Below, one piece after another: positions 30,512 through 40,960 of a DNA stretch of 64,000 nt. The notes under the pieces were generated by a model. The model searched no databases and had not been told where the DNA came from. It was given only the letters and a program-made list of their open reading frames with translations. The stretch covers positions 255,137 through 319,136 of the forward strand of contig JAJNDK010000004.1 in assembly GCA_021156365.1 (NCBI GenBank), read 5' to 3'. Origin of the DNA: Bacteroidota bacterium. Lineage in GTDB: Bacteria; Bacteroidota; Bacteroidia; B-17B0; Aurantibacillaceae. The translations under genes were made by a program, and so were the position numbers. Each line of letters begins with the position of its first letter. Positions within the stretch are counted from its first letter, which is position 1.

Positions 30512-30519
30512 TCCGGGGC

Positions 30520-31065
30520 TTATTTCCGGACCGTATCCCATTTCCCAAAATGCTGCAGGAAGATCTTCGCAATATTCCGTGCATCATCGATCCCGCGGTG
30601 GTGTGTGCCCTCAAGTTCGATCTTTTCCATCCACAGTGCGCCTGCCATTCCGGTATGTTTTTTCAGGCCTTTGATCCCGGTGTACTGATGTTTGAGACTG
30701 ATATGCTTTTCGAGCCAGGAGGTTTCCAGTTCGTGGAGCTCGCAATCGTTCTTCAGCTGCACGCGGTCATAATGGCCCCAGCTGCAGAGCAGGTAATCTT
30801 CTGTACCAATCCAGTTTCTGAATTTTTTCAGCACTTCCGGGAATGTTTCCGCAGCATCTACCTGCTCCTGGGTGATAGTTGTGAGTTTGATGCAGAAAGG
30901 CGAAAGCTGTGTATCCAGTTTGGGTTTCACAAATGCACAGAATTCGCTTTCAATAATTTTGTTTTCGTTGATGCAAAGCGCACCGATCTCAATGATCTCG
31001 TTTTTCTTTGATGGATCCCTCGGCTCCCAACAGGAGGCTTCGAGATCGAGTATAATGTATTTCAT
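30520..31065 (-). CDS. DEDDh 3'-5' exonuclease (ERI-1/KapD-like)
   Basis: Exo I DLEAS, Exo II, Exo III H-x4-D (HHRGIDDARN); 181 aa. Confidence 0.75.
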   Translation of the reverse strand: MKYIILDLEASCWEPRDPSKKNEIIEIGALCINENKIIESEFCAFVKPKLDTQLSPFCIKLTTITQEQVDAAETFPEVLKKFRNWIGTEDYLLCSWGHYDRVQLKNDCELHELETSWLEKHISLKHQYTGIKGLKKHTGMAGALWMEKIELEGTHHRGIDDARNIAKIFLQHFGKWDTVRK

Positions 31066-31080
31066 AATTTTCTTTTTTTG

Positions 31081-31398
31081 TTATAATTCTTTTTCTTCTT
31101 GTTTGTATTCACAGCGAATAGCTTTGCCATAAATGATCTTCGTCCAGCCATTCTCGAATCCATGATTGTTGGCGATCAGGAAGCCTTTATTCGTGTCTGT
31201 TTGAACGATCTTATGTGCATCTATGAAACGTCCTCTCACCTTGCAAAATACAATATCACCAATTTCATAGTGTTCAGCCTTTGTAAAGGTAAGCAGCGAA
31301 CCGCTTTTTAAAATGGGTAACATAGAATTGCCGAAGCATTTCATGGAACCTGTTCCTGTATTTTCTAATTCTTCTTTTAATCGTAAATATTTATTCAT
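31081..31398 (-). CDS. stand-alone S24-family (LexA/UmuD-like) peptidase domain protein
   Basis: GNSMLP Ser motif plus downstream Lys; 105 aa. Confidence 0.5.
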   Translation of the reverse strand: MNKYLRLKEELENTGTGSMKCFGNSMLPILKSGSLLTFTKAEHYEIGDIVFCKVRGRFIDAHKIVQTDTNKGFLIANNHGFENGWTKIIYGKAIRCEYKQEEKEL

Positions 31399-31453
31399 TT
31401 GTTTTTTTAATTGTAAAAAGCCCTGCTTCTATGGAAGCAGGGTCGGGTTTTAG

Positions 31454-32548
31454 TTATGGGCCGAACAGCGTTCGCAGCTGCGATGAAACGGGGCTCTCAC
31501 CGGAGATCGTAATACCATTGATCTTCGCTGTGATCTTTTCCACAAACTCCATCTCTTTGAGCTTGAACAGCATTGCATTGTCCTCCATCAGCTTCGCAGT
31601 GTTCAGAAGGCTACGTGTAGCTGCTGTTTCCTCACGACGCATGATGGTGTTGGCCTGTGCTTTTTTCTCCGCAATCAGTACCTGGTTCAGGATCTCTTTC
31701 ATATCACCTGGCAGGATGATGTCGCGGATACCACCACCGCGCAGTGCTACACCCAGTTCTTTGATACGTTCGGCAGCAGCTTCCAGGATGAAAGCGGAAA
31801 TGCTTTCTTTTTTATCCAGCAGTTCATCCAGGCTCAGCGCACCCACATACTCGCGCAGGACCAGCTGCATGATCACATAGAGTTGTTTTTCGTACTCTTT
31901 GTTATTCACCACTGCTTTCACAATGTCTTCAATGTGATACTGCACATAGAAATTGATACGCAGGCCCGCTTTGTCTTTGCTCAGGATCTCCTGGCCCGCG
32001 ATCTCCAGCTGCATCGTACGCATATCGGCACGCGTGATCACAATAGATGTGTTATTTTTCCAGAAGTAATACGAACCCGGTTCCATGATCTTCACGTATT
32101 TACCATCCATGTACATCACGGCTTTTTCACACGGCTCTACTGTATAAAAACGGATGTACTGGATCAGCTCTTTACGCATGTACAGGGATGGATCGATATC
32201 CGCACCGATCTCCGTTTTATTCAGATCCACGATTTTGAATTCCTGTATGATCAGACCTTTCCAGTATATATAAGTGCCGGGACCCAGCACTTCCATGAAC
32301 AGACCTTTTTCGTAACGCAGGGCAATCTCGTTATTTTTCACTTCAACGATATCGATAGCAGCTATGAAAGCCGGATCACGCATCAGGATATTGATGTTGC
32401 GGGGCGCAATGAATGGTTTCGCCATATCATATTCCACCAGCTCATCGAAGTAGGAAATACGATGTGCGCCTTCGGTCAGCACTGTTTTGTATTCGCCATC
32501 GGAAAATACCATGCCGATCTTACCGGCCTTTATTTTTATCTTTTTCAT
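31454..32548 (-). CDS. SPFH/band-7 (stomatin/flotillin-like) domain protein
   Basis: C-terminal SPFH core (LSLDELLDKKESIS...IKELGVALRGGGIRDIILPGDMKEILNQVLIAEKKAQA); start taken at MKKIKIKAGK. Confidence 0.65.
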   Translation of the reverse strand: MKKIKIKAGKIGMVFSDGEYKTVLTEGAHRISYFDELVEYDMAKPFIAPRNINILMRDPAFIAAIDIVEVKNNEIALRYEKGLFMEVLGPGTYIYWKGLIIQEFKIVDLNKTEIGADIDPSLYMRKELIQYIRFYTVEPCEKAVMYMDGKYVKIMEPGSYYFWKNNTSIVITRADMRTMQLEIAGQEILSKDKAGLRINFYVQYHIEDIVKAVVNNKEYEKQLYVIMQLVLREYVGALSLDELLDKKESISAFILEAAAERIKELGVALRGGGIRDIILPGDMKEILNQVLIAEKKAQANTIMRREETAATRSLLNTAKLMEDNAMLFKLKEMEFVEKITAKINGITISGESPVSSQLRTLFGP

Positions 32549-32872
32549 ATGTTTGTTTTTTCTTGTTTTTAAATTTAAAAGAAGGAATTGTTTCATTCAC
32601 CCGTGAATAGCGGAATCCTGTTTCAGTAAGCCGCTTTCGAATGGTTTTTATACAATTACAAGAAAGTCCATTGTATAAAAAGCAAAAGCTGTTGGCATAA
32701 CGGTATCCACATTCATCTGGCTTTCCACCGGTTGTTCCGTACCGCTTCCGGCGCGGAGCTGAATCAAACCATTCCTTTCTTTTTGAGCGCCATTTTTATA
32801 GAAGTCGGCATCTTCTCTTTTGAGGATCTGGAATCCTTTGCGTTTACCAGTTTCGCCACCCTGATTGCAACA

Positions 32873-32996
32873 TCAGGGGCAGGATTCGAACCTGCATGTT
32901 TGGTGTCACACTCTAACCACTGAGTTACCTGCATTGCTGCAGAACCGGATTCGAACCGGTGACCTTGACGTCATTCGTTCGTTAATCAACCGCAGC
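32873..32996 (-). pseudogene. two tandem degenerate tRNA-like fragments (D-arm plus T-arm, no anticodon arm)
   Basis: GTAACTCAGTGGTTAGAGT D-arm and GCAGGTTCGAATCCTGC / ACCGGTTCGAATCCGGT T-arms on the minus strand with incomplete acceptor stems. Confidence 0.3.
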
Positions 32997-33155
32997 ATAT
33001 AAATAACCAGTGGCCATTTACACTATGGGGCCTTTTGAAACCCTCATCACGGGCGTATTGCTAACGAAACGCTCTTTATCCTGCTTTCGCAGAAAATGAT
33101 TTTATATATTCAAAGAACTATTTTACTCTATCAACACTGCAAAGGTGAAACGCGA

Positions 33156-33176
33156 CTACGTAACCGAATTGCGCAG
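33156..33176. promoter_or_regulatory. palindromic operator copy (CTACGTAA-N5-TTGCGCAG)
   Basis: ctacgtaaccgaattgcgcag, preceded by caaaggtgaaa as at 27086. Confidence 0.5.
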
Positions 33177-33256
33177 GAACTATTTTTACTTCCTTTTTTT
33201 CTAAGCAACTGGAACAGAGCCGGAATACTTTTTTATCCCTTCCTGTTTTTGCTCAT

Positions 33257-33277
33257 CCGCGCAAATAGATTGCGTAG
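33257..33277. promoter_or_regulatory. palindromic operator copy (CCGCGCAA-N5-TTGCGTAG)
   Basis: ccgcgcaaatagattgcgtag. Confidence 0.5.
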
Positions 33278-33284
33278 ATCACTG

Positions 33285-33355
33285 TTCTCTTAACCGGAAT
33301 CGAACCAATATCTTATCCTTAGAAGGGATGTGTTTTTCCTTTAAACTATAAGAGA
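33285..33355 (-). tRNA. tRNA-Arg(UCU), AT-rich non-canonical
   Basis: hand fold: acceptor TCTCTTA/TAAGAGA, D-stem GTTT/AAAC, anticodon loop CTTCTAA, T-arm ATTGG-TTCGATT-CCGGT. Confidence 0.55.
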
Positions 33356-33358
33356 ATG

Positions 33359-33441
33359 TTCCTCCGAACCCCGATAGTTATCGGGGCGAACTTTTGTTTC
33401 GCGGTTAAAAGCCGCGAGCTCTGCCACTGAGCTACGAAGGA
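33359..33441 (-). ncRNA. tRNA-Lys(UUU)-like gene with T-arm replaced by palindromic hairpin CCCCGATAACTATCGGGG
   Basis: acceptor TCCTTCG/CGGAGGA, D-arm GCTC-AGTGGCA-GAGC, anticodon arm CGCGG-CTTTTAA-CCGCG; the T-arm position holds GTTCG[CCCCGATAACTATCGGGG]TTCGG. Confidence 0.45.
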
Positions 33442-33455
33442 ATTTATATTTTTAC

Positions 33456-33529
33456 TGGTAGCTCCTGATTGAATCGAACAATCACTTTATGGATGTAAGC
33501 CATACATTCTGCCTTTAAATTAAGGAGCT
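33456..33529 (-). tRNA. tRNA-Val(UAC), CCA encoded
   Basis: acceptor AGCTCCT/AGGAGCT, anticodon arm TATGG-CTTACAT-CCATA, T-arm GATTG-TTCGATT-CAATC, 3' ACCA encoded. Confidence 0.6.
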
Positions 33530-33535
33530 GTTTTG

Positions 33536-33607
33536 TTGCCTTAGAAAGAATCGAACCTTCACCCTCCGGTTTATGAGACCGGTGCTCCACCCTTGAGCTA
33601 TAAGGCA
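33536..33607 (-). tRNA. tRNA-Met/Ile2(CAU)
   Basis: acceptor TGCCTTA/TAAGGCA, D-arm GCTC-AAGGGTG-GAGC, anticodon arm CCGGT-CTCATAA-ACCGG, T-arm GAAGG-TTCGATT-CTTTC. Confidence 0.65.
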
Positions 33608-33613
33608 TTTTTG

Positions 33614-33685
33614 TTGTCTTAACAGGATTTGAACCTGTAGCCTCCGACGTATCAGGTCGTTGCTCCACCTGTTGAGCTATAAGAC
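33614..33685 (-). tRNA. tRNA-Ile(GAU)
   Basis: acceptor TGTCTTA/TAAGACA, D-arm GCTC..GAGC, anticodon loop CTGATAC, T-arm ACAGG-TTCAAAT-CCTGT. Confidence 0.6.
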
Positions 33686-33691
33686 AATGTG

Positions 33692-33762
33692 AGCAGAATA
33701 TCGGATTCGAACCGCGTCCCCTGGGTGGAAACCAGGTGCTTTACCACTAAGCTATATTCTGC
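33692..33762 (-). tRNA. tRNA-Gly(UCC)
   Basis: acceptor GCAGAAT/ATTCTGC (extendable to 9 bp), anticodon arm CCTGG-TTTCCAC-CCAGG, T-loop TTCGAAT with a weak 3-bp T-stem. Confidence 0.5.
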
Positions 33763-33906
33763 ATAGTATTCCCACGGTCCCGATAGCTATCGCGAGAACC
33801 CGTGTCTGGTCATTGAAAGTGACCGATCCTAACCATTAGAAGATGGGAACATAGTTCCTCTTCTTCATTCCTTTTGTTCTTCATTTTATTAATTATTAAT
33901 CGTTTG

Positions 33907-33975
33907 CACATTCACAGGGAATCGAACCTTGTCCTGCAGTTTTGGAGGCTGCGTGGCTACCATAGCCTTGAATGT
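33907..33975 (-). ncRNA. tRNA-like gene with 9-nt anticodon loop
   Basis: acceptor ACATTCA/TGAATGT, D-like hairpin GGCTA-TGG-TAGCC, stem GCAG-CCTCCAAAA-CTGC, T-arm ACAAGG-TTCGATT-CCCTGT. Confidence 0.35.
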
Positions 33976-33981
33976 AGTGGC

Positions 33982-34018
33982 GGTTCATAAGGGTCCCGAT
34001 AGCTGTCGGGACGGACCC
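33982..34018. repeat. extended palindromic element GGGTCCCGATAGCTGTCGGGACGGACCC
   Basis: member of the CCCGATAGCTATCGGG palindrome family (copies near 33369, 33779, 34265, 34974, 35372, 41201). Confidence 0.6.
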
Positions 34019-34232
34019 TTGTCTTCCGAGCGACAGTCGGAGATAATGGCCTTTATACCAATGAACCTGGTGCTTCGATAGATGCCGATGTGATGTACAA
34101 GGCTTTTGCAAACTTCGCCTTCATTGTCATCGGGCCGCGGACTTTAACCGCTCCTTGTACACTGCGCTTTGACAAGAGCACAGCTACATTTTTCGCATCT
34201 ATCCGGCGCGCCTTTGCATGGCTTACCGTTTG

Positions 34233-34318
34233 CGGACAAAGCAGGATTCGAACCTACTGCCTGATGCCCCGATAGCTATCGGGGCAGTCAACTGCTCATC
34301 CATATGAGCTTTTTGTCC
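34233..34318 (-). ncRNA. tRNA-like gene with anticodon arm replaced by a 22-bp perfect palindrome TGCCCCGATAGCTATCGGGGCA
   Basis: acceptor GGACAAA/TTTGTCC, D-arm GCTC-ATATGGAT-GAGC, T-arm GTAGG-TTCGAAT-CCTGC; the region between D- and T-arms is the palindromic hairpin with short flanks and no anticodon stem. Confidence 0.45.
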
Positions 34319-34328
34319 AATTTTTTTG

Positions 34329-34401
34329 AGCCAGTAGCAAGCCTCGAACTTGCGACCTTCTGCTTACAAGGCAGTTGCTCTTCCCGCTGAGCTATACCGG
34401 C
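34329..34401 (-). tRNA. tRNA-Thr(UGU), GC-rich canonical-looking
   Basis: acceptor GCCGGTA/TACTGGC, D-arm GCTC-AGCGGGAA-GAGC, anticodon arm ACTGC-CTTGTAA-GCAGA, T-arm GCAAG-TTCGAGG-CTTGC. Confidence 0.65.
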
Positions 34402-34462
34402 ATTTGAAGGTGAAAACGCAGTAAGCCAGGTTTTTCCTGATAGCTACACTCAATCACCTTTG

Positions 34463-34605
34463 TTGACCCGGATGGATTCGAACCATCGCAACCCGTGTTA
34501 ATCACTGACGAAAAATCTTAATCGATTTTTATCAGAATTAACCTTGATAAAACTTGTTTCGTCAAGGTTACAAGCACGGTACTCTACTTGCTGAGCTACA
34601 GATCA
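34463..34605 (-). ncRNA. tRNA-Thr(UGU)-like gene with ~70-nt structured insertion in the anticodon loop
   Basis: acceptor TGATCTG/CGGGTCA (2 GU pairs), D-arm GCTC-AGCAAGTA-GAGT, 5' anticodon stem CCGTG plus loop CTTGTAA, then insertion 34497-34566 with internal inverted repeats (CCTTGA..TCAAGG; AAAAATC..GATTTTT), then 3' stem CACGG, T-arm GATGG-TTCGAAT-CCATC. Confidence 0.4.
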
Positions 34606-34626
34606 ATAATTCAAGGAATACAATTT

Positions 34627-34772
34627 TTTAAAAGGGCAATGAACGAACATAGTTTTGGGTTTTCGTTAACAGCGAAGTAACTATGTTCTACGGCACCTTA
34701 TTTTAAAAGGCAATAAACGGGTATAGTTTTATTTTGCGTGACAGGCGAAGTAACTATACTCTACGGCACTTT
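34627..34772. repeat. two tandem ~73-nt paralogous hairpin units (candidate small structured RNAs)
   Basis: unit 1 has inverted repeat GAACATAGTT...AACTATGTTC; unit 2 has GTATAGTT...AACTATAC; the units share aaaggcaat..catagtttt..cgaagtaactat..ctacggcac. Confidence 0.45.
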
Positions 34773-34774
34773 TG

Positions 34775-34847
34775 TCGATCTACCTGGATTCGAACCAGGG
34801 ACTTCAGTCTTAAAAGGACTGAGCTCTGCCAACTGAGCTATAGACCG
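34775..34847 (-). tRNA. tRNA-Lys(UUU)
   Basis: acceptor CGGTCTA/TAGATCG, D-arm GCTC-AGTTGGC-AGAGC, anticodon arm CAGTC-CTTTTAA-GACTG, T-arm CCTGG-TTCGAAT-CCAGG. Confidence 0.65.
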
Positions 34848-34849
34848 AA

Positions 34850-35400
34850 ATTTGAATGGGTAAAAATCGAAAGAGAACGTTTTGGCGCTCTATCCGCTGA
34901 GCTATAAGGCAATGAAATGAATATTGGTTGCCTCAATGGGATTCGAACCCATGACCTCCCGATTAAGAGTCGATCCCGATAGCTATCGGGACTTTTCTAC
35001 GACACCATTCAATGGTTTTGATGAGGAAAAAAACGTTCAGTGCTTTTGTTAACTGAGCTACTCTTCATTGCTGAAAGATTGGACTTGAACCAATGGCCTT
35101 CCCGACATTTATCGTCGGGGCGCTCTACCGAAGTATCACTTTACTACGTCACTCATCAATGTTTTTAAACAGGTAAAAAGCTGTAAAAGTTTTTTGTCTT
35201 GTGCTCTAACCAACTGAGCTATCTGCCTTTCGACAAAACCGGACTCGAACCGGTGCCCCCAAGGTTAACGATGTATCTCTTACATACGACACTGTTTAAT
35301 TTTGAAGAAAGAGCGATGGTTGCGGGAGCGTGTCTTAGAGGATTCGAACCTCTGACCTTTCGGCCTCACCATCCCGATAGCTATCGGGAGAAGTATCTCT
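34850..35400 (-). pseudogene. run of degenerate or rearranged tRNA-like fragments with palindrome insertions
   Basis: 5' half TGCCTTATAGCTCAGCGGATAGAGC (34850-34913); 3' half ..ATGGGTTCGAATCCCATTGAGGCAACCA with palindrome (34925-35012); Leu(UAA)-like anticodon hairpin CCCGAC-GATAAAT-GTCGGG plus T-arm ATTGG-TTCAAGT-CCAAT (~35060-35110); 5' half GGCAGATAGCTCAGTTGGTTAGAGCAC (~35200); T-arm ACCGG-TTCGAGT-CCGGT (~35235); element 35320-35400 with palindrome, GAAA-tetraloop hairpin and T-arm AGAGG-TTCGAAT-CCTCT. None folds into a complete cloverleaf by hand. Confidence 0.3.
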
Positions 35401-35447
35401 CCGCGAACGGCATCTTTCAATAGGTTTGTCAGGAGCAATTGCGATCC

Positions 35448-35520
35448 GCAGTGATGGAGACCTGCCGGCGGGGATTTGCACCCCGTTCCGTTTCTGCACC
35501 GGAACCCTCTCTCCTATGGA
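35448..35520 (-). ncRNA. D-armless tRNA-like hairpin RNA with TGCAAAT T-loop (candidate Y-RNA-like)
   Basis: GGAGAGA..TCTCC closing stem, stem GTTCCG/CGGAAC, T-like arm GGGG-TGCAAAT-CCCC; located ~290 bp downstream of the rsr stop. Confidence 0.35.
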
Positions 35521-35589
35521 TGGTATGCTCACCGCGATCTACGGCAACCTGACAATGTGTTTAATTATATGCTGTCAAAAGCGAAATGC

Positions 35590-35660
35590 GATGAGGGCAG
35601 GGGATACGCAATGAGGATTTGCACCTCTTCCTGATTGTAATGTCAGGACCCTTCCCCTTC
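35590..35660 (-). ncRNA. D-armless tRNA-like RNA with TGCAAAT T-loop (candidate Y-RNA-like)
   Basis: closing stem GGGGAAG/..TATCCCC, anticodon-like arm TCCTGA-CATTACAA-TCAGGA, T-like arm GAGG-TGCAAAT-CCTC; paralog of 35448-35520; ~150 bp downstream of rsr. Confidence 0.35.
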
Positions 35661-35744
35661 AATGGCGCGAAGTAGCCCTTTTCTGCGGCATTCTGGCAGC
35701 AATGTTTTTTTGTCTTTGAATAATATGTCAATGAACGAATTTCT

Positions 35745-35797
35745 TTTAAAACCTCCCTGTCTCCTTCGACAAGCTCAGGATGACGGGGGAGGAGTTT
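35745..35797 (-). terminator. rho-independent terminator of rsr
   Basis: minus strand CCTCCCCCGTCATCCTGAGCTTGTCGAAGGAGACAGGGAGG followed by TTTT; loop sequence resembles the terminator at 63065-63110. Confidence 0.6.
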
Positions 35798-35803
35798 TTT
35801 ATT

Positions 35804-37321
35804 TTATAATTCAATTTGTTTGATTTTTTCTACTGCACCCACACCATTTTCGATAGCGTGCAATACATCAAACACTTTGTCCGACCAACCTGCGATCAGG
35901 TGTACATCGTTTTTCTGAACGTTCAGCGGCGTGTTTCCATGGCCCGCAAGATCGAACAGGTACAATTTTGCTTTTGGCGCGATCGCTTTGTAGGCATTCC
36001 AGGATTTCTCCAGGGAAGAACCCGCATGACGGCTATCCCACAGCTGGCAGTCGGTGAACAGCATCACTTTATCCATCACCACGTTTCGTGCGATCAGGTC
36101 ATCGATCACTTTGTAACCATTGGTCGAGTAACCCACTTCACCTTCACGTTTGTAGTATTGGTCCACATTGGCCAGTACTCCGCGGTTTGGCAGGTTGATC
36201 ACTTTCCAGGTATCACCGAACATACCTGATACCACACGCTTACATTTCGACTGCATCAGCATACCCAGCATCAGGCCGATGTCGTAAAACATCACTTTGC
36301 TTTTAGCCGATACGGCTTGCTGCATCGAACCGGATACGTCACATGCTACCAGCACGGCAGTGTTCTCGTCGAAACCTTTCAGGTTCTTAACGCTTGCCAC
36401 CACTGCATCTTCCAGCGCATTCAATACCATGGTCACGAACTCCGAGTTCATCACTTTGATCTCACGGTGCGCTGCGAGGAAACGGAATGGCAACTGTTTC
36501 GAGTTTGCCACCGCAGTCTCATTCGACAGGTAAGCGCATACTTTTTTCACATGCGAAGCAGATACTTTTGCTTCCAGTATGTTACGCAGGTTACGCATCA
36601 AAGCCATATAACCAACTTTACCGCTGTCGATCAGTTCTTCCCATTTAGCACGGAAAGCTGCAGCCTTTTCTTTATCGTTGGCATATTTTGTCTGACCCAA
36701 TGCCGACAGCTCAGTTTCCCAGGTGTATGGAACAGCCAGTTCGTTCGCAGCTATTTTATTGAACACCACTTGCTGGTTCTCGTCTTTCGCTTTTGGATGC
36801 ACTATGAACAGGGCGTCACGCAATTTCACTTCCGCATCCCGATTGTATTTTGCGAACTGGTATTCATCGAAACGGTTGAAAGATACTGCCAGCCCTTTCT
36901 GGATCTGCTTCGACAGCTTATTCAGCTTTTTAGTACCGTTACGTTTGTTGGCCAGCTGGTAATATGCCAGGAGCTCGGTGATCTCATCGGCACGTTTTAC
37001 CACGCCCGATACGGTTTTACCTACCACCGCATCACCGGAGTTCAGTTTGGCCAGTTCTACCGCCAGTACCATTGGGATCGAACGCATATACATTTCGTTA
37101 CGTGCATACACTGCCAGTTTCGCTACGTATTGTGCATCGTTTTTCAACATCAGCTCACGGATACGTGTCAAACGGGTATCTGCTTTCTCATAGAAGCTGT
37201 CGTTTAGGCCCGCAGTTACTACCGCTGAGTATAGCTCCAGCTCAGGAGTCAGTTGGAATGCTTTTGCACCTTCATAGTTTGTAACTACGTTTTCTGTTTT
37301 TTTGAAGATGTTGAATTTCAT
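35804..37321 (-). CDS. rsr: Ro60-like (TROVE domain plus vWA/MIDAS) ribonucleoprotein Rsr
   Basis: 505 aa; N-terminal TROVE-like helical repeats (NYEGAKAFQLTPELELYSAVVTAGL...MRSIPMVLAVELA); C-terminal vWA MIDAS (VLVACDVSGSMQ). Confidence 0.8.
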   Translation of the reverse strand: MKFNIFKKTENVVTNYEGAKAFQLTPELELYSAVVTAGLNDSFYEKADTRLTRIRELMLKNDAQYVAKLAVYARNEMYMRSIPMVLAVELAKLNSGDAVVGKTVSGVVKRADEITELLAYYQLANKRNGTKKLNKLSKQIQKGLAVSFNRFDEYQFAKYNRDAEVKLRDALFIVHPKAKDENQQVVFNKIAANELAVPYTWETELSALGQTKYANDKEKAAAFRAKWEELIDSGKVGYMALMRNLRNILEAKVSASHVKKVCAYLSNETAVANSKQLPFRFLAAHREIKVMNSEFVTMVLNALEDAVVASVKNLKGFDENTAVLVACDVSGSMQQAVSAKSKVMFYDIGLMLGMLMQSKCKRVVSGMFGDTWKVINLPNRGVLANVDQYYKREGEVGYSTNGYKVIDDLIARNVVMDKVMLFTDCQLWDSRHAGSSLEKSWNAYKAIAPKAKLYLFDLAGHGNTPLNVQKNDVHLIAGWSDKVFDVLHAIENGVGAVEKIKQIEL

Positions 37322-37391
37322 TTTGTTTAGTTTTTAAATTTCTTGTTTATCAATTGTTGTTCTTAATCAGCACTGCAAAGATTCTATACTC

Positions 37392-37412
37392 CTGCGCAAC
37401 AGAATTGCGCAG
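37392..37412. promoter_or_regulatory. perfect palindromic operator CTGCGCAA-cagaa-TTGCGCAG upstream of rsr
   Basis: 71-91 bp upstream of the rsr start; 8-bp arms are exact reverse complements. Confidence 0.65.
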
Positions 37413-37503
37413 TAAAAAAATAATTCGCGGAACGATCAAATAAATCTGTAATGTGTTGATTTTCATTTGAGATAATTTCAAAAGAAAATTCATCTCTTTC
37501 CTA

Positions 37504-37524
37504 TTGCGCAAATAGATTGCGCAG
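37504..37524. promoter_or_regulatory. palindromic operator TTGCGCAA-ataga-TTGCGCAG upstream of the WYL regulator gene
   Basis: 51-71 bp upstream of the WYL gene start; likely autoregulatory site. Confidence 0.65.
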
Positions 37525-37574
37525 ATAAATGAAATGTTTATCTTTGATACAACCTGTTTTTAAATAAAAACGTT

Positions 37575-38588
37575 ATGCCCATTAATAAATTAGCCCTTGT
37601 TCGCTACAAAACCATCGACAATTGTTTACAGAACCGTTTTCGCAAATGGACGCTGGACGACCTGATGGAGGCGGTTTCCGAAGCTTTGTATGAATACGAA
37701 GGTATCACCAAAGGCATCAGCCGGAGAACCATACAGCTTGATCTGCAAAACATGCGCAGTGAGAAACTTGGTTACAATGCACCGATCGTAGTAACGGATA
37801 AAAAGTTCTACAGTTACGAAGACAAGCAGTACAGCATCACCAGTATTCCTTTAACAGAACAGGATATGGGCACGTTGAACGAAGTGTTGGGTGTTCTGAA
37901 ACAATTCAAAGGCTTTGGTTATTTCCAGGAACTTACCGGGATGGTAACCAAGCTCGAGGACAAGCTTTATAAGCAACAGCATAAAGGCAAATCATATATC
38001 GATTTTGAAAAAAACGAATTGCTCAAAGGTTTAGAGTTTATTGATCCTTTGCACAAAGCGATCATCAATCGTAAAACGATCGAGATCACTTATCAATCCT
38101 TTAAAGCGAATCAATCACAGCAGATCGTTTTTTATCCTTATCTACTGAAAGAATACCGCAATCGCTGGTTCCTCTTCGGTATGAACAGAAAAGGCAGCTC
38201 AGCGATGATCCTTGCACTGGACCGCATTGAGAAGTTCAAAGAGCTCTCCGAAAAATATGTGAAAGCACCTTTCGATGCGCACATGTTTTTCGATGATGTG
38301 ATCGGTGTAAGTAAAGCGCCCGGACAAAAACCATCAACCATTGTGATGAAGATCGACAAAGAAAATGCACCTTATGTGATCACCAAGCCGATCCATCCTT
38401 CGCAAAAGATCCTGAAGGAAGAACCCGACGGGATCTTATTCAGCATTGATGTTGTCTGGAACTTTGAGCTGGAACGTGAATTGCTTGGCTTCGGTGAGAA
38501 GCTGCACATACTTTCTCCGCGTAGGCTTGCCGGAAAAATACAATCGCGTTTGAAACACACATTACAAAAATATCAAAGAACGGAATAA
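37575..38588 (+). CDS. HTH-WYL-WCX domain transcriptional regulator
   Basis: N-terminal wHTH (LALVRYKTIDNCLQ), WYL signature (IVFYPYLLKEYRNRWFLFGMN), C-terminal WCX-like region. Confidence 0.8.
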   Translation: MPINKLALVRYKTIDNCLQNRFRKWTLDDLMEAVSEALYEYEGITKGISRRTIQLDLQNMRSEKLGYNAPIVVTDKKFYSYEDKQYSITSIPLTEQDMGTLNEVLGVLKQFKGFGYFQELTGMVTKLEDKLYKQQHKGKSYIDFEKNELLKGLEFIDPLHKAIINRKTIEITYQSFKANQSQQIVFYPYLLKEYRNRWFLFGMNRKGSSAMILALDRIEKFKELSEKYVKAPFDAHMFFDDVIGVSKAPGQKPSTIVMKIDKENAPYVITKPIHPSQKILKEEPDGILFSIDVVWNFELERELLGFGEKLHILSPRRLAGKIQSRLKHTLQKYQRTE

Positions 38589-38594
38589 TACGTG

Positions 38595-38670
38595 TCGGGA
38601 AAGCAGGATTTGAACCTGCGAACTCTCGCTTCCAGGGCGAGCGGGGACGGCCTGACTCCCCCATTTCCCG
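38595..38670 (-). tRNA. tRNA-Pro(UGG)-like, C at position 33
   Basis: acceptor CGGGAAA/TTTCCCG (C1:G72 as in bacterial tRNA-Pro), D-arm GGGG-AGTCAGGCCGT-CCCC (11-nt loop), anticodon arm CTCGC-CCTGGAA-GCGAG, T-arm GCAGG-TTCAAAT-CCTGC. Confidence 0.5.
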
Positions 38671-38681
38671 TTTTATCTTTG

Positions 38682-38755
38682 TCGATCAATGAGGACTCGA
38701 ACCTCAAACCTTCTGATTCGTAATCAGGTGCTCTATCCAATTGAGCTATTGATCG
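38682..38755 (-). tRNA. tRNA-Arg(ACG)
   Basis: acceptor CGATCAA/TTGATCG all Watson-Crick, D-arm GCTC..GAGC, anticodon loop TTACGAA, T-arm TGAGG-TTCGAGT-CCTCA. Confidence 0.7.
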
Positions 38756-38756
38756 G

Positions 38757-38832
38757 TGGTGGACAAGGGTGGGATCGAACCACCTTCTCCGGATTTTCAG
38801 TCCGGCGCATAGACCAACTCTGCTACTTGTCC
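38757..38832 (-). tRNA. tRNA-Phe(GAA), CCA encoded
   Basis: acceptor GGACAAG/CTTGTCC, anticodon arm CCGGA-CTGAAAA-TCCGG, T-arm GGTGG-TTCGATC-CCACC, ACCA 3' end; only 1 nt from the preceding gene. Confidence 0.6.
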
Positions 38833-38956
38833 ATTTCATCAACACTTTATGCAAGCCACCTTCCGGATTTTAAAGTGGCTGCTTTTGCCACTTTGAGGTC
38901 GCTATTCGCTCGGTTCAATCCGCTGCATTGACCATCTTTGCTACATTTCCATTTTG

Positions 38957-39029
38957 GGTGAGATAGGGGAATTGAACCCGTATCTGCGGCATCACAAGCC
39001 GATGTGTTGACCATTACACCAATCTCACC
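38957..39029 (-). tRNA. tRNA-His(GUG) with encoded G-1 and C73
   Basis: G-1 plus acceptor GTGAGAT/ATCTCAC, D-arm GTGT-AATGGTCA-ACAC, anticodon arm TCGGC-TTGTGAT-GCCGC, T-loop TTCAATT. Confidence 0.55.
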
Positions 39030-39067
39030 ATGTTTCAATTGTAGCAAAACGTTCGCTGCAATTGTAG

Positions 39068-39143
39068 TCGGGAAGGCTGGATTCGAACCAGCGAACTCCT
39101 GCGTCCAAGGCAGGCGGGGACGACCTGACTCCCCTACTTCCCG
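39068..39143 (-). tRNA. tRNA-Pro(UGG), paralog of 38595-38670
   Basis: acceptor CGGGAAG/CTTCCCG, D-arm GGGG-AGTCAGGTCGT-CCCC, anticodon arm CCTGC-CTTGGAC-GCAGG, T-arm GCTGG-TTCGAAT-CCAGC. Confidence 0.55.
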
Positions 39144-39172
39144 TAGTTTTTTTATCGGTCTACAAACCGAAG

Positions 39173-39267
39173 TGGGAAAGACAGTCACGCTATAGCGTGA
39201 GAACCTGCTAAGCCTTGCGGCGACGGAGTTACAGTCCGTCTCAACTCACCATCGTTGACGCTTTCCC
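39173..39267 (-). ncRNA. tRNA-Tyr(GUA)-like gene with T-arm replaced by a 6-bp/TATA-tetraloop palindromic hairpin
   Basis: acceptor GGGAAAG/CTTTCCC, class-II D-arm TCAA-CGATGGTGAG-TTGA, anticodon arm ACGGA-CTGTAAC-TCCGT, variable arm GCC-GCAA-GGC, then TCACGC-TATA-GCGTGA where the T-arm should be. Confidence 0.4.
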
Positions 39268-39274
39268 ATTTTTG

Positions 39275-39348
39275 TACCCTCTACAGGATTCGAACCTGCA
39301 CTCTCTTGTTTCTAAGACAAGCGCCTTTGCCTGTTTGGCTAAGAGGGC
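39275..39348 (-). tRNA. tRNA-Leu(UAG)-like lacking the long variable arm
   Basis: acceptor GCCCTCT/AGAGGGT, 3-bp D-stem with long D-loop GCC-AAACAGGCAAA-GGC, anticodon arm CTTGT-CTTAGAA-ACAAG, 5-nt variable AGAGT, T-arm GCAGG-TTCGAAT-CCTGT. Confidence 0.45.
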
Positions 39349-39356
39349 ATATTTTG

Positions 39357-39439
39357 CGGAAGGTATAGGAATCGAACCCTGCCCTTGTGGACCGCCCAAG
39401 ATTTCAAGTCTTGTTGTACACCATTGTACGCTACCTTCC
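39357..39439 (-). tRNA. tRNA-Ser(UGA)-like (class II length)
   Basis: acceptor GGAAGGT/ACCTTCC, D-stem GTAC/GTAC, anticodon arm CAAGA-CTTGAAA-TCTTG, long variable region, weak T-stem around TTCGATT. Confidence 0.45.
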
Positions 39440-39440
39440 G

Positions 39441-39535
39441 TTGCGGAGAATTGAGTTCCCGACACTCATCCCGACGATACTGTCAGGACACCATGCTTAG
39501 CAGGCAGGTCCGGGCCCCGCCCGGTTAATTCTCCA
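39441..39535 (-). ncRNA. structured RNA with tRNA-like closing stem (GGAGAAT/ATTCTCC) and no T-loop
   Basis: internal hairpins CCGGGC-GGGG-CCCGG and direct repeat TCGGGA..TCGGGA. Confidence 0.2.
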
Positions 39536-39542
39536 TATGTTG

Positions 39543-39615
39543 TACCCCCTGCAGGATTCGAACCTGCATGCTCTTGTGTCTGAGACAAGCGCCTTTACCG
39601 TTTGGCCAAGAGGGC
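39543..39615 (-). tRNA. tRNA-Leu(CAG)-like lacking the long variable arm (paralog of 39275-39348)
   Basis: acceptor GCCCTCT/AGGGGGT, D-arm GCC-AAACGGTAAA-GGC, anticodon arm CTTGT-CTCAGAC-ACAAG, T-arm GCAGG-TTCGAAT-CCTGC. Confidence 0.45.
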
Positions 39616-39616
39616 G

Positions 39617-39725
39617 TTGGTGGGAGGCAGGATCTTTAACTGTCAGGCGACAGAGTATCCTGCAGACAGACGGTTCTTCCACGCCCATCCGGATCTCCCA
39701 AGTGTTTCGGAAGATCTGCTCCCCG
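39617..39725 (-). ncRNA. ~105-nt structured RNA closed by a 12-bp stem (GGGGAGCAGATC/GATCCTGCCTCCC)
   Basis: internal hairpin CTGTC-AGGC-GACAG; no tRNA motifs. Confidence 0.2.
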
Positions 39726-39735
39726 TATTTTTTTG

Positions 39736-39807
39736 TTGTCAGGGATGGATTCGAACCACCGCTTTCAGAGCCAAATTCTGACGTCCTGCCAATTAGACGA
39801 CCTGACA
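39736..39807 (-). tRNA. tRNA-Gln(UUG)
   Basis: acceptor TGTCAGG/CCTGACA, D-arm GTCT-AATTGGCA-GGAC, anticodon arm TCAGA-ATTTGGC-TCTGA, T-arm GGTGG-TTCGAAT-CCATC. Confidence 0.6.
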
Positions 39808-39817
39808 GTATTTCTTT

Positions 39818-39852
39818 AAAACAAAAAGGCCCGATCTTTTTTAAGGATCGGG
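39818..39852 (-). terminator. rho-independent terminator downstream of the Rnl5-type ligase gene
   Basis: GGCCCGATC..GATCGGGCC 9-bp stem followed by TTTTTGTTTT on the minus strand. Confidence 0.6.
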
Positions 39853-39958
39853 CCTGCGCATATTTATGCACACCAATCCTGGTCAATCATCGTATAGTGA
39901 TTGAAAACTAAACCGAATACTATACGGTCGTTGTCCTGTTTTTATATTTCCGTCTTTT

Positions 39959-40960
39959 TTATTCATCGTATTTGATCAAAAAATCCGGATTGATCGCTTT
40001 GAAGGATACACGACCCTGCAAACTGTATTTGTCTGTCATTTCCTCAACAGGCCTGATAACAATACCTTCGGCGATAGTATCTGCGTGAAGCACCGATCTC
40101 ATTTTGGATTTAGCGATTAGTTTTTCGATATCGCTTTCCAGCATGTAACCTTCCTCCAATACAGGAACCATTTTCAGCTCTAGGTCGTTCAGCAGTTGCT
40201 TTGCTTCCTTCAGTGACAAATAGCTGTAGCTATCGATCGCAAACACGTTGAAGAAATGCACATGCTGACCTTTCAGTTTGTATTTATTCTTCTGAATGCC
40301 TTCACCTATGATCTCGCCCTGCAATGCAATGTTCGAACCCAGTTGTTTCAGCTTTTCTTCCAGCTTATTTTCTACTGCAAACTTCCACATGGAATTGCTT
40401 TCGTCAAACAGCAGATCCAGGTTCCTGGAGCAAACACCGAACTCACCATCTTTGAAGTAGAAAGTAGCTGAACTACCATCTAATTTTTCGGTTACGTAGC
40501 ATGCGATCCCTTCATATTTGTCCAATACCTTCTGCAATACCTGCACCCTGGTCTCATCTGTTTTAGGGATGAAAGAAGGGAACATACCTTTTACCTCGCC
40601 TGCTAAATTCGCAGGAATTGGCGGCTCGAACTTCGTTACGCCTAAGATGTCGGTTACGTCCAGGTCTTCTTCCACCTGTATTCCTTCCGGAAGTACATTT
40701 AATGGAAAGCAGATACCCTGTGAGATCTGGCCACGCAGCCTGATGGTTTTGATCCTGTTGCTTTTTGCACGAACAAATTCAAACTCCGGCTTATCAGGCA
40801 TCACGCTATCGATCTCGCAATACACACAGAGATCATCGATGGCAAAATCACCTTTACGGATCACTAACTGCCAACCCAACACGCTTGCTTTTTCAATGGC
40901 ATCGGCGCCTTCTATCGGCTCTATATTTTTTATCCTTTGTATGGATGCTAATTTTCTCAT
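39959..40960 (-). CDS. ATP-dependent RNA ligase, Rnl5/DraRnl (DRB0094) type: N-terminal OB fold plus nucleotidyltransferase
   Basis: N-terminal OB-like region (MRKLASIQRIKNIEPIEGADAIEKASVLGWQLVIRKGDF), motif I KxDG (TEKLDGSSATFYF); start taken at MRKLAS. Confidence 0.7.
   Translation of the reverse strand: MRKLASIQRIKNIEPIEGADAIEKASVLGWQLVIRKGDFAIDDLCVYCEIDSVMPDKPEFEFVRAKSNRIKTIRLRGQISQGICFPLNVLPEGIQVEEDLDVTDILGVTKFEPPIPANLAGEVKGMFPSFIPKTDETRVQVLQKVLDKYEGIACYVTEKLDGSSATFYFKDGEFGVCSRNLDLLFDESNSMWKFAVENKLEEKLKQLGSNIALQGEIIGEGIQKNKYKLKGQHVHFFNVFAIDSYSYLSLKEAKQLLNDLELKMVPVLEEGYMLESDIEKLIAKSKMRSVLHADTIAEGIVIRPVEEMTDKYSLQGRVSFKAINPDFLIKYDE

What the first reader, a model, noticed from the sequence alone, without database searches (positions are those of the whole stretch)
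35448..35660. Two paralogous D-armless tRNA-like RNAs with unusual TGCAAAT T-loops immediately downstream of rsr: candidate Y-RNA-like partners of Ro60
Bacterial Rsr orthologues are usually encoded next to Y RNAs, which contain tRNA-like modules (YrlA). The two elements at 35448-35520 and 35590-35660 share G-rich stems capped by TGCAAAT and a closing acceptor-like helix, but lack a D-arm. They lie between the rsr terminator and the tRNA array.
Basis: partly seen in the sequence, partly recalled or inferred. Interest (0 to 1): 0.6.

Follow-up and report, generated by a model that had tools for sequence, protein, structure and literature searches.

The report
Two tandem Y RNAs beside rsr
Two neighbouring structured RNA genes of about 135 nt, just downstream of the bacterial Ro60 gene (rsr), are very likely Y RNAs, the partner RNAs of Ro60; they belong to a type found across Bacteroidota that has a tRNA-like T-arm but no D-arm and matches no Rfam family.

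Summary
The flagged cores lie inside two complete RNA genes: YB (35701→35567) and YA (35557→35421).

Each gene has:
- a terminal stem formed by its 5' and 3' ends;
- an invariant GCCG(U/C)AGA motif and a second stem followed by YUAC, which resembles the published Rsr-binding region of YrlA;
- a head with a variable hairpin and a 4–5 bp T-arm with loop UGCAAAU.

A covariance model built from YB orthologues finds the family in most of 80 Bacteroidota rsr loci, always on the rsr strand. Covariation is strong: 90.5% of cells paired against 68% in shuffles, and 32 of 34 pairs show double changes. The shared module motif occurs 310 times on the rsr strand and never on the other. A protein-blind scan of viral contigs for the same module lands next to TROVE genes in at least 34 of 49 cases.

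YB/YA are not YrlA members (no D-arm, no acceptor-like hairpin, no Rfam hit) and are not tRNAs. UGCAAAU is a clade-specific variant of the canonical UUCGACU loop seen in Flavobacterium and Pedobacter orthologues. YA is a duplicate seen only in this genome. At least six more Y-like genes follow.

Verdict: a new variant of a known kind. Rsr binding is inferred, not shown.

The parts
35567..35701 (-).
   Evidence: Model R1 scores it 133.9 bits over the full model. Orthologues lie directly downstream of rsr in related loci.
35691..35700 (-). YB P1, 5' strand (GCUGCCAGAA). It pairs with 35571-35580 (UUUUGACAGC), with one C·A mismatch.
   Evidence: In the family, 11 of the 12 pairs of this helix show changes on both sides. 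Sequence checked.
35571..35580 (-). YB P1, 3' strand
35682..35689 (-). YB candidate Rsr-binding motif GCCGCAGA (family consensus G[C/U]CGUAGA). It follows bulged U35690. Its GC pairs with GC at 35581-35582, and its GA pairs with UC at 35590-35591.
   Evidence: Near-invariant in alignments A1, A2 and A4. The flanking pairs covary: CG:30/UA:22 and GC:34/AU:19. It resembles GNCGAAN0-1G of PMC4201824.
35675..35679 (-). YB P2, 5' strand (AGGGC). It pairs with 35594-35598 (GCCCU).
   Evidence: All 5 pairs show changes on both sides.
35594..35598 (-). YB P2, 3' strand
35668..35675 (-). YB CUAC-UUCG linker (YUAY-type element plus conserved UUCG)
   Evidence: Conserved as U[A/U]C[A/U]UCG in the family. 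The composite motif occurs 310 times on the rsr strand and 0 times on the opposite strand in 80 loci.
35666..35669 (-). YB P3, 5' strand (CGCG). It pairs with 35607-35610 (UGCG), which lies just 3' of the T-arm. P3 crosses P4, giving a putative pseudoknot.
   Evidence: Each sequence's own two strands are more complementary than strands taken from different sequences: 3.48 against 2.90, with 0 of 5000 permutations as high. At least six distinct pair sets are seen, including CGC/GCG, GUC/GAC, CGUA/UACG, ACCA/UGGU, GGUA/UACC and GUCA/UGAC.
35653..35658 (-). YB P4, 5' strand (AGGGGA). It pairs with 35599-35604 (UCCCCU).
   Evidence: Mostly invariant G4/C4, with a few compensated variants: GGGAC/GUCCC, GGGGC/GCCCC, GGGC/GCCC, and GGAGA/UCUCC in YA.
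35648..35652 (-). YB conserved single-stranded AGGGU, a candidate mimic of the D-loop GG that could dock on the T-loop
   Evidence: Nearly invariant. Its form tracks the T-loop type: AGGG(U/C) with UGCAAAU, and AGGAAU with UUCGAYU. The tertiary contact is inferred.
35629..35648 (-). YB P5 variable hairpin (UCCUGA-CAUUACAA-UCAGGA), in the anticodon-arm position
   Evidence: All 6 pairs covary. Loop length and sequence vary, so it is not anticodon-like.
35613..35627 (-). YB T-arm GAGG-UGCAAAU-CCUC (loop 35617-35623)
   Evidence: The T-stem covaries (GAGG/CCUC, CCGG/CCGG, CCAG/CUGG, CCGGG/CCCGG): 4 of 4 pairs, 100% paired. Orthologues carry canonical UUCGACU or UUCGAAU loops.
35581..35592 (-). 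YB conserved 3' motif AUCGCAUUUCGC (family AUCG[C/U]NNNUU[G/A]C)
35421..35557 (-).
   Evidence: R1 scores it 55.5 bits over the full model. It shares 87 identical positions with YB in a 143-column alignment, and every helix is rebuilt with different base pairs. No counterpart was found in the 16 closest genome loci or in 16 metagenome loci.
35548..35555 (-). YA P1, 5' strand UUGUCAGG. It pairs with 35426-35433 (CCUGACAA).
35538..35545 (-). YA motif GCCGUAGA
35529..35536 (-). YA P2, 5' strand CGCGGUGA. It pairs with 35447-35454 (UCACUGCG).
   Evidence: 8 bp including one G·U
35510..35514 (-). YA P4, 5' strand GGAGA. It pairs with 35456-35460 (UCUCC).
35486..35504 (-). YA P5 hairpin UUCCG-GUGCAGAAA-CGGAA, preceded by AGGGU (35504-35508)
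35469..35485 (-). YA T-arm CGGGG-UGCAAAU-CCCCG (loop 35474-35480)
35804..37321 (-). rsr (Ro60 orthologue, 505 aa)
   Evidence: Pfam TROVE at 9.4e-29 plus a weak Ro60 vWA match. Full-length match to the solved TROVE-domain protein chains 9L5Y and 9KOP, whose accession codes are the phage phiLo Ro60 entries of PMC12135203.
35752..35792 (-). Hairpin after the rsr stop codon, followed by UUUU (possible leaky terminator or processing site)
   Evidence: Folds at -18.4 kcal/mol, z = -2.58. The terminator scan did not call it.
34622..35422 (-). Six further Y-like genes that share the same module: Yc about 35300-35422, Y1 35168-35297, Y2 35012-35162, Y3 about 34852-35014, Ys2 34707-34771, Ys1 34622-34706
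   Evidence: R1 hits of 34.3, 36.9 and 22.1 bits. Rfam YrlA sub-threshold hits of 38.4 and 31.5 bits. Module motifs located. For Yc, Y1, Y2 and Y3, the minimum-energy folds close the 5' and 3' ends.
37575..38588 (+). Divergently oriented WYL-WCX regulator, the likely controller of the locus
   Evidence: Pfam WYL and WCX domains. Conserved upstream of rsr in 55 of 80 loci.

Best explanation
YB (35701-35567) and YA (35557-35421) are two tandem genes for Y RNAs, the noncoding RNA partners of the Ro60 orthologue Rsr encoded just upstream.

Shown:
- Each is a modular RNA of about 135 nt.
- Module 1 is a long stem made by the 5' and 3' ends: P1, a bulged U, two G-C pairs, an asymmetric internal loop with invariant 5' CGUA, a GA/UC step, then P2, followed by YUAC-UUCG.
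- Module 2 is a head with a conserved AGGG(U), a variable hairpin (P5) and a T-arm whose loop is UGCAAAU.
- Short helices P3 and P4 flank the head and cross each other.

Inferred:
- Module 1 docks on the outer face of the Rsr ring, as in characterised Y RNAs.
- The head folds compactly, through T-loop docking on the AGG and a P3/P4 pseudoknot. It then serves as the effector or protective module: it tethers Rsr to a partner such as PNPase, gates the Rsr cavity, or mimics part of a tRNA.
- The genes are probably transcribed with or just after rsr, under the divergent WYL regulator, as part of a polycistronic array of Y RNAs and tRNAs, and are then processed.
- G at T-loop position 55 means that TruB cannot make the usual pseudouridine 55.
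- YA is a lineage-specific duplicate of YB that kept the fold through compensatory changes.
For: - Position and strand. R1 gives 225 hits in 80 Bacteroidota rsr loci, all on the rsr strand. It gives one high-scoring YB orthologue per locus in 52 loci and in 14 of 16 metagenome loci. The five hits in the window are all downstream of rsr.
- Module motif. It occurs 310 times on the rsr strand and 0 times on the opposite strand. It is present in 77 of 80 loci, and 99% of copies lie within 5 kb downstream of the rsr stop.
- Structure. 90.5% of cells are paired against 68.4% in shuffles and about 50% in slid controls. 32 of 34 pairs show changes on both sides. Every helix covaries.
- P3. Complementarity is specific to each sequence: 0 of 5000 permutations reach the observed value.
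- Link to Ro60 that does not depend on Bacteroidota. A DNA-only pattern for the module plus a T-loop finds 49 viral contigs, and 34 of them have a TROVE gene in the fetched stretch.
- The motif pair resembles GNCGAAN0-1G and YUAY of YrlA. Published precedents exist for Y RNAs with only a T-arm and for a T-arm lacking U55 (PMC4201824).
- YA and YB differ in every helix yet keep every pairing.
Against: - No expression or binding data were available. Rsr association rests on synteny and on motif resemblance.
- The 5' motif differs from the published GNCGAAN0-1G at one position (U or C instead of A).
- No Rfam family, including YrlA and Y_RNA, matches YA or YB even at E <= 10.
- Single-sequence folding energies are ordinary.
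- Promoter and terminator scans give nothing above shuffles, so the transcription units are unknown.
- P4 is nearly invariant, so the pseudoknot has covariation support on only one of its two helices.
- The match between T-loop type and AGG-motif type may reflect a single clade split.
- Alignment A4 was fitted to the model structure, which inflates the pair counts somewhat.
- One YB orthologue (L141) lacks the GCCGUAGA motif.
Confidence: 0.8

Rival explanations
1. They are structured noncoding RNAs of the rsr locus that do not act through Rsr. For example, they could be partial tRNA mimics that serve as decoys or competitive inhibitors of tRNA-targeting nucleases. They could also be ligands or substrates for the neighbouring WYL regulator, RNA ligase, Thg1-like enzyme or RNase T.
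For: The locus is rich in tRNA-repair genes and tRNA arrays. The WYL regulator is conserved with rsr in 55 of 80 loci. [quoted passage not shown] Rsr binding is untested here.
Against: The one element shared by all the different RNAs of the array is the terminal-stem module. That module tracks TROVE genes even in phage contigs that do not have this gene neighbourhood. RNA ligase, Thg1, RNase T and SPFH homologues are found in few of the 80 loci (0, 0, 6 and 2), although flanks of only 6 kb were searched. A decoy role and Rsr binding are not mutually exclusive.
Confidence: 0.12
2. They are cis-acting structures of a long rsr-tRNA transcript, such as processing signals, attenuators or a 3'-UTR stabiliser, and not independent RNA products.
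For: No convincing promoter or terminator lies between rsr and the array. The genes are packed head to tail with 10-20 nt spacers.
Against: The units are self-contained: each is closed by its own covarying terminal stem. They occur in 1-9 copies per locus with different heads. The same module occurs upstream of TROVE genes in phages. Polycistronic synthesis followed by processing is already documented for true Y RNAs (PMC4201824).
Confidence: 0.05
3. They are decayed tRNA genes (pseudogenes) at the edge of the tRNA array.
For: They have a T-arm-like hairpin and a hairpin in the anticodon-arm position. They lie next to a tRNA array that also holds disrupted tRNA-like genes.
Against: There is no acceptor stem, D-arm or anticodon loop, and ARAGORN and the Rfam tRNA model do not call them. 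Non-tRNA helices P1 and P2 are conserved and covary from Chitinophagia to Flavobacteriia. The same closing module occurs on short RNAs with no tRNA-like part.
Confidence: 0.03

Closest known systems
YrlA (Y RNA-like A; Rfam RF02553; Chen et al. 2014, PMC4201824)
   Same: Encoded beside rsr on the same strand. The 5' and 3' ends form the stem. It has a 5'-strand motif of the GNCG-A-G type followed by a second stem and YUAY. It contains a tRNA-type T-arm. Several copies can sit in one locus. YrlA-like genes with the same module lie in the same array (Y1 and Y3).
   Different: The head of YA/YB has no D-arm and no acceptor-like stem-loop. The hairpin lies before the T-arm, not after it. Two short helices cross in a putative pseudoknot. 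The T-loop has G where YrlA has U55 (pseudouridine 55). The motif has U or C where the published consensus has A. The Rfam model gives no hit.
Deinococcus radiodurans Yrn1 and the neighbouring small RNAs a and b (PMC4201824)
   Same: As described in the paper, Yrn1 has a T-arm, a stem-loop in the anticodon-arm position and only D-loop-like features, in the normal tRNA order. [quoted passage not shown] This is the same overall layout as YA/YB.
   Different: Homology could not be tested because no Yrn1 sequence or model was available in the tools. Yrn1 is encoded upstream of rsr. According to the paper, its Ro-binding helix is closer to the metazoan form.
Mycobacterium smegmatis YrlB and Salmonella YrlB (second Y RNAs of an rsr locus)
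   Same: They are additional Y RNAs in an rsr locus that also encodes a YrlA (bound by Rsr in the published work; binding is untested here). M. smegmatis YrlB 'contains a possible T-arm' (PMC4201824).
   Different: [quoted passage not shown] That fits the short Ys1 and Ys2 genes of this window better than it fits YA/YB.
tRNA
   Same: A T-arm with a 7-nt loop that keeps U54, C56 and A58. An upstream GG could dock on it.
   Different: No acceptor stem, D-arm, anticodon loop or CCA context. Not detected by tRNA finders.

Membership tests
Y RNA (functional class) | Encoded within a few kb of the Ro60/rsr gene on the same strand (the bacterial rule of PMC4201824) | tested here: met
   The two genes start 103 and 247 nt after the rsr stop, on the same strand. 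The same holds in related loci.
Y RNA (functional class) | Length of about 80-150 nt, with a long stem formed by pairing of the 5' and 3' ends | tested here: met
   P1 and P2 covary: 11 of 12 and 5 of 5 pairs show double changes. The minimum-energy fold of YB reproduces them.
Y RNA (functional class) | Conserved Ro60-binding motif in the 5' strand of that stem (GNCGAAN0-1G in bacteria, GGUCCGA in vertebrates) | tested here: inconclusive
   The invariant G[C/U]CG[U/C]AGA fits GNCG-A-G except for U or C at the first A. The same variant (GGCGUAGA) is found in RNAs next to TROVE genes in phage contigs. This is a resemblance, not a binding test.
Y RNA (functional class) | A second module of loops and stem-loops, distinct from the Ro-binding stem | tested here: met
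   The head contains P5, the T-arm and the P3/P4 helices.
Y RNA (functional class) | Physically bound, and usually stabilised, by Ro60/Rsr | not testable with these tools
   Needs RIP or CLIP, EMSA, or an rsr deletion mutant.
YrlA (Rfam RF02553) | Score at or above the Rfam gathering threshold (69 bits) | tested here: not met
   No hit on 35421-35701 even at E <= 10. The threshold is strict, though: textbook T-arm / acceptor-like hairpin / D-arm examples score only 42-48 bits.
YrlA (Rfam RF02553) | tRNA-like domain with a T-arm, then an acceptor-like stem-loop, then a D-arm | tested here: not met
   Only the T-arm is present. There is no GCUC...GAGC D-arm and no hairpin after the T-arm.
YrlA (Rfam RF02553) | Conserved YUAY after the Rsr-binding stem | tested here: met
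   CUAC in YB; the family has mostly UUAC or AUAC. AUAC in YA departs at the first position (A instead of a pyrimidine), as do many orthologues.
YrlA (Rfam RF02553) | T-loop with U at position 55 (the TruB substrate, pseudouridine 55) | tested here: not met
   The loop is UGCAAAU, with G at that position, in YA, YB and 17 related loci (plus UGCGAAU in one more). Flavobacterium, Pedobacter and Sphingobacterium orthologues keep UUCGACU or UUCGAAU.
tRNA | Cloverleaf with acceptor stem, D-arm, anticodon arm and T-arm, detectable by ARAGORN or Rfam RF00005 | tested here: not met
   Not called.
Yrn1-type Y RNA (D. radiodurans) | T-arm preceded by a stem-loop in the anticodon-arm position, with D-loop-like residues but no D-arm | not tested
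   The layout matches the published description, but no Yrn1 sequence or model was available for a homology test.

The most novel reading that the evidence does not exclude
The two RNAs are the first members of a modular battery. In Bacteroidota, rsr is followed by up to nine Y RNA genes that share one Rsr-docking module but display different heads: a T-arm with a pseudoknot, a circularly permuted near-complete tRNA, a T-arm/acceptor-like-hairpin/D-arm (YrlA-like) mimic, or a bare hairpin. These genes are interleaved with a spare tRNA array and sit under a WYL sensor. The heads would act as interchangeable adaptors or decoys. They would direct Rsr and its exonuclease partner to different damaged tRNAs, or soak up different tRNA-targeting toxins. 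On this reading the locus is a programmable tRNA-damage response or anti-toxin system, not a single RNP.
Probability: 0.2. Interest if true: 0.8.

Novelty: new variant of a known kind. Interest (0 to 1): 0.5.

Why it matters
Bacterial Y RNAs have been characterised in only a few species, including Deinococcus, Salmonella, M. smegmatis and one Thermus phage. Rfam holds a single narrow model, YrlA.

This finding defines a well-supported Y RNA family with at least 66 orthologues across Bacteroidota, a phylum that includes culturable and genetically tractable genera. The family has a clear shared Rsr-type module and a head that is neither YrlA-like nor a plain hairpin. It gives three things:
- a ready covariance model for annotating rsr loci that Rfam currently leaves empty;
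- a natural series of heads on one docking module, which makes the open question of what the second Y RNA module does directly testable;
- a natural U55-to-G T-loop variant for testing the role of pseudouridine 55 and T-loop docking in tRNA mimicry.

It also shows that the Rfam YrlA threshold misses most YrlA-like RNAs in phages and Bacteroidota.

Tried and rejected
- Rfam at gathering threshold on the window and on 23 related loci gave only tRNAs and unrelated sRNAs, with no Y RNA family. In E-value mode, YrlA appears only at sub-threshold scores and not on YA/YB.
- ARAGORN tRNAs and none in 35421-35701.
- MAFFT plus RNAalifold on the first 18 sequences found P1, P5 and the T-arm. It misaligned the 3' strand of P2 and produced two spurious helices. 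This was fixed by building a covariance model with a hand-set structure and realigning.
- P3 could not be counted column by column on A4, because its register differs by one nucleotide between clades. I used a test of own-strand against other-sequence complementarity instead.
- Single-sequence folding z-scores are weak.
- The sigma-70 promoter and terminator scan gave fewer hits than shuffles. A search for the Bacteroidetes TAnnTTTG -7 box found nothing in 32800-37600.
- The local alternative hairpin CUUC/GAAG in YB is not conserved in orthologues, so I rejected it (by inspection).
- I looked for YA orthologues in the 16 closest genome loci and in 16 metagenome loci and found none.
- The supplementary tables of Chen et al. 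2014 and two Wolin-lab reviews are not held. I therefore could not check whether any Bacteroidota Y RNA was listed there.
- Four literature searches found no description of this family.

Full report
**Context.** The window is a Bacteroidota chromosome. The best Rsr match is 83% identity to an uncultured Chitinophaga MAG. The ORF at 35804-37321 on the minus strand encodes a 505-aa TROVE protein with a weak Ro60-type vWA match. It aligns over its full length to the solved TROVE-domain protein chains 9L5Y and 9KOP, whose accession codes are the Thermus phage phiLo Ro60 entries of PMC12135203. It is therefore an rsr gene. A WYL-WCX regulator is encoded divergently at 37575-38588 and is conserved with rsr in 55 of 80 related loci. 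tRNA arrays flank the gene on the same strand. An RNA ligase, a Thg1-like enzyme and an RNase T-like exonuclease lie nearby.

**The observation.** The two flagged elements read correctly on the minus strand.
- GTGCAAATCC occurs exactly twice in 64 kb, at 35615-35624 and 35472-35481. Each copy caps a G-rich 4-5 bp stem.
- Neither element has a D-arm, and no tRNA finder calls them.
Blastn of the rsr-downstream region against 80 rsr loci from other Bacteroidota showed that the conserved unit around element B runs from about 35698 to 35573.

**The family and its structure.** Eighteen orthologues aligned at 59% mean identity, with obvious compensatory changes. I set a structure by hand on a 13-sequence alignment, built covariance model R1, and realigned. 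On the 54 best matches:
- 90.5% of cells form standard pairs, against 68.4% after shuffling and 46-56% when partners are slid by 1-3 columns.
- 32 of 34 pairs show changes on both sides.
- Each of the six helices covaries. The alignment was fitted to the model, so these figures lean towards the structure, but the margin is large.

The anatomy of YB, in window coordinates on the minus strand, is as follows:
- P1: 35700-35691 with 35580-35571.
- Bulged U35690, then two G-C pairs.
- An internal loop with invariant CGUA/CGCA inside the motif GCCGCAGA (35689-35682), opposite AUCGCAUUUCGC (35592-35581).
- A covarying GA/UC step.
- P2: 35679-35675 with 35598-35594.
- CUAC-UUCG (35675-35668).
- The head: P3 5' strand (35669-35666), P4 5' strand (35658-35653), AGGGU (35652-35648), variable hairpin P5 (35648-35629), T-arm GAGG-UGCAAAU-CCUC (35627-35613), P3 3' strand (35610-35607) and P4 3' strand (35604-35599).

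P3 and P4 cross, so they would form a pseudoknot.
- P3 is supported. Each sequence's own two strands are more complementary than strands taken from different sequences (3.48 against 2.90, with 0 of 5000 permutations as high), and at least six different pair sets are seen.
- P4 is almost invariant G4/C4, with only a few compensated variants.
- I therefore treat the pseudoknot as a hypothesis.

**Element A.** R1 was built without YA, yet it scores 35557-35421 at 55.5 bits over the full model. The only other hits in the whole window are three more on the same strand, further downstream. YA has the same parts as YB: P1 UUGUCAGG/CCUGACAA, GCCGUAGA, P2 CGCGGUGA/UCACUGCG, AUAC, P4 GGAGA/UCUCC, AGGGU, a P5 hairpin, and the T-arm CGGGG-UGCAAAU-CCCCG. 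Every helix uses different base pairs from YB. In the closest relatives, the YB orthologue is followed directly by a different Y-like gene, the 'UUGAAAGAUGCCGU' type, which is Yc in this window. No relative has a YA counterpart. YA is thus a lineage-specific duplicate that kept its fold.

**Why these are Y RNAs.**
1. Position. There are 225 R1 hits in 80 loci, all on the rsr strand. One high-scoring YB orthologue is found in each of 52 of these loci and in 14 of 16 metagenome loci.
2. The module. The composite motif G[C/U]CGU[A/U]N ... U[A/U]C[A/U]UCG occurs 310 times on the rsr strand and never on the other strand in 1 Mb. It is present in 77 of 80 loci, usually in 3-5 copies, and 99% of copies lie within 5 kb downstream of the rsr stop. 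The module is shared by RNAs with quite different heads.
3. Independence from Bacteroidota. A protein-blind DNA pattern (CGTARA, TACTTCG, T-loop) run over 2.9 million viral contigs returned 49 stretches. Most of these are classic RNAs with a T-arm, an acceptor-like hairpin and a D-arm, carrying GGCGUAGA ... UUACUUCG. Thirty-four have a TROVE gene in the fetched flank. One contig has exactly the length of Caulobacter phage CcrColossus, a phage reported to encode Ro60 and a Y-RNA-like RNA.
4. Agreement with the literature. Chen et al. 2014 (PMC4201824) describe bacterial Y RNAs as encoded within a few kb of rsr on the same strand. They describe a 5' GNCGAAN0-1G motif, a conserved YUAY and a tRNA-like domain. 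They report at least two Y RNAs in each of the three species studied. They note that M. smegmatis YrlB has a possible T-arm and that the T-arm of D. radiodurans RNA a lacks U55. They describe Yrn1 as having a T-arm and an anticodon-arm-like hairpin but no full D-arm. YA/YB fit this picture closely.

**What they are not.**
- They are not YrlA members. They have no D-arm and no acceptor-like hairpin, they carry G at T-loop position 55, and the Rfam YrlA model gives no hit even at E <= 10.
- That model's gathering score of 69 bits is very strict. It gives only 42-48 bits on textbook examples from viral contigs. It reached threshold in none of 23 related loci.
- It does give sub-threshold hits at 35180-35283 (38.4 bits) and 34861-34976 (31.5 bits).
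- YA/YB are not decayed tRNAs, because the non-tRNA helices covary from Chitinophagia to Flavobacteriia.

**The unusual T-loop.**
- UGCAAAU is a clade-specific state. It is present in YA and YB here and in 17 related loci, with UGCGAAU in one more.
- Flavobacterium, Pedobacter, Sphingobacterium and Chryseobacterium orthologues have UUCGACU, UUCGAAU or UUCAAAU.
- U54, C56 and A58 are kept. Only position 55 (U to G) and positions 57 and 59 differ.
- The loop type tracks the conserved single-stranded motif upstream of P5: AGGG(U/C) with UGCAAAU, and AGGAAU with UUCGAYU.
- This fits docking of the GG on the T-loop, as the D-loop does in tRNA. It may equally reflect a single clade split.

**Mechanism.** The modular anatomy and the rsr linkage are shown. 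The following points are inferred:
- The P1/GNCGNAG/P2 module binds the outer face of the Rsr ring.
- The compact head acts as the effector or protective module. It could tether Rsr to PNPase or another partner, gate the cavity, or serve as a partial tRNA mimic.
- The RNAs are made from a polycistronic transcript of rsr, Y RNAs and tRNAs under the WYL regulator. No internal promoter or terminator stood out. A hairpin followed by UUUU lies after the rsr stop.

I put the probability that these are Rsr-associated Y RNAs at 0.8.

**Novelty.** Four literature searches found no description of this family. The supplementary lists of Chen et al. 2014 and two reviews could not be read, so earlier listing of some Bacteroidota YrlA-like hits cannot be excluded. 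The finding is a new variant of a known kind. It is a solid and useful extension of the Y RNA family, not a surprise in principle. The broader pattern is the more interesting lead: up to nine Y-like genes with interchangeable heads on one docking module, interleaved with tRNAs.

Noticed in passing
window 34622-35422 (-): Six more Y-like genes carry the same closing module as YA/YB. Yc (about 35300-35422) has a T-arm plus a REP-type hairpin. Y1 (35168-35297) has the YrlA layout of T-arm, GNRA-capped acceptor-like hairpin and D-arm. Y2 (35012-35162) looks like a near-complete tRNA that is circularly permuted in the D-loop. Y3 spans about 34852-35014. Ys2 and Ys1 (34707-34771 and 34622-34706) are short hairpin types reminiscent of YrlB. 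The order YB-Yc-Y1 is syntenic in the closest relatives.
   Followed up: partly
window 33371-33384, 33780-33793, 33996-34009, 34269-34282, 34976-34989, 35374-35387, 41203-41216: A 16-18 nt perfect palindrome, (T)CCCGATAGCTATCGGG(A), occurs seven times. Six copies sit inside tRNA-like or Y-like genes, where the hairpin takes the place of the T-arm (33356-33455, 33763-33850), the anticodon loop (34233-34318) or the D-arm position (Yc, Y3). The same palindrome occurs elsewhere in Flavobacterium rsr loci, apparently outside these RNA genes, so it looks like a REP-like mobile hairpin. Whether the interrupted tRNA-like genes still function is unknown.
   Followed up: partly
window 34463-34605 (-): A tRNA-Thr(UGU)-like gene of 143 nt has an insertion of about 70 nt just after the anticodon loop (Rfam tRNA 42.2 bits). 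An intact tRNA-Thr(UGU) lies at 34328-34401. The insertion could be an intron-like element or a disruption.
   Followed up: no
window 27218-32596 and 37575-41913: The gene neighbourhood suggests an RNA-damage island. It holds a divergent WYL-WCX regulator (conserved in 55 of 80 loci), an RNA ligase with a PHA02142 OB domain, a Thg1-like 3'-5' polymerase, an RNase T-like exonuclease, an SPFH/Band-7 protein and a large VIT-vWA protein.
   Followed up: partly
L081-L129 (IMG/VR contigs): A plain DNA pattern for the module plus a T-loop finds 49 viral contigs, many longer than 100 kb. Thirty-four have a TROVE gene in the fetched flank, and several carry 2-3 tandem copies (L105, L112, L116). One contig has the length of Caulobacter phage CcrColossus. 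The GGCGUAGA...UUACUUCG form of the Y RNA module is therefore widespread in phages.
   Followed up: partly
Rfam RF02553 on L085, L087, L093, L101 and window 35180-35283: The Rfam YrlA model scores only 38-48 bits, against a gathering score of 69, on RNAs with the full layout of T-arm, acceptor-like hairpin and D-arm next to TROVE genes. Standard Rfam annotation therefore leaves most rsr loci outside the seed clades without a Y RNA.
   Followed up: yes
L141:4078-4207: This YB orthologue (R1 49.5 bits; its Rsr is 75% identical) has the GCCGUAGA motif replaced by GUGAAAGG and the T-loop UGCAACU, while the rest of the fold is kept. It is a natural variant for testing whether the motif is needed.
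   Followed up: no
window 35752-35792 (-): The hairpin after the rsr stop codon contains GUCAUCCUGAGCUUGUCGAAGGA. From memory, this resembles a repeat common in Bacteroidota intergenic regions. I did not check this.
   Followed up: no
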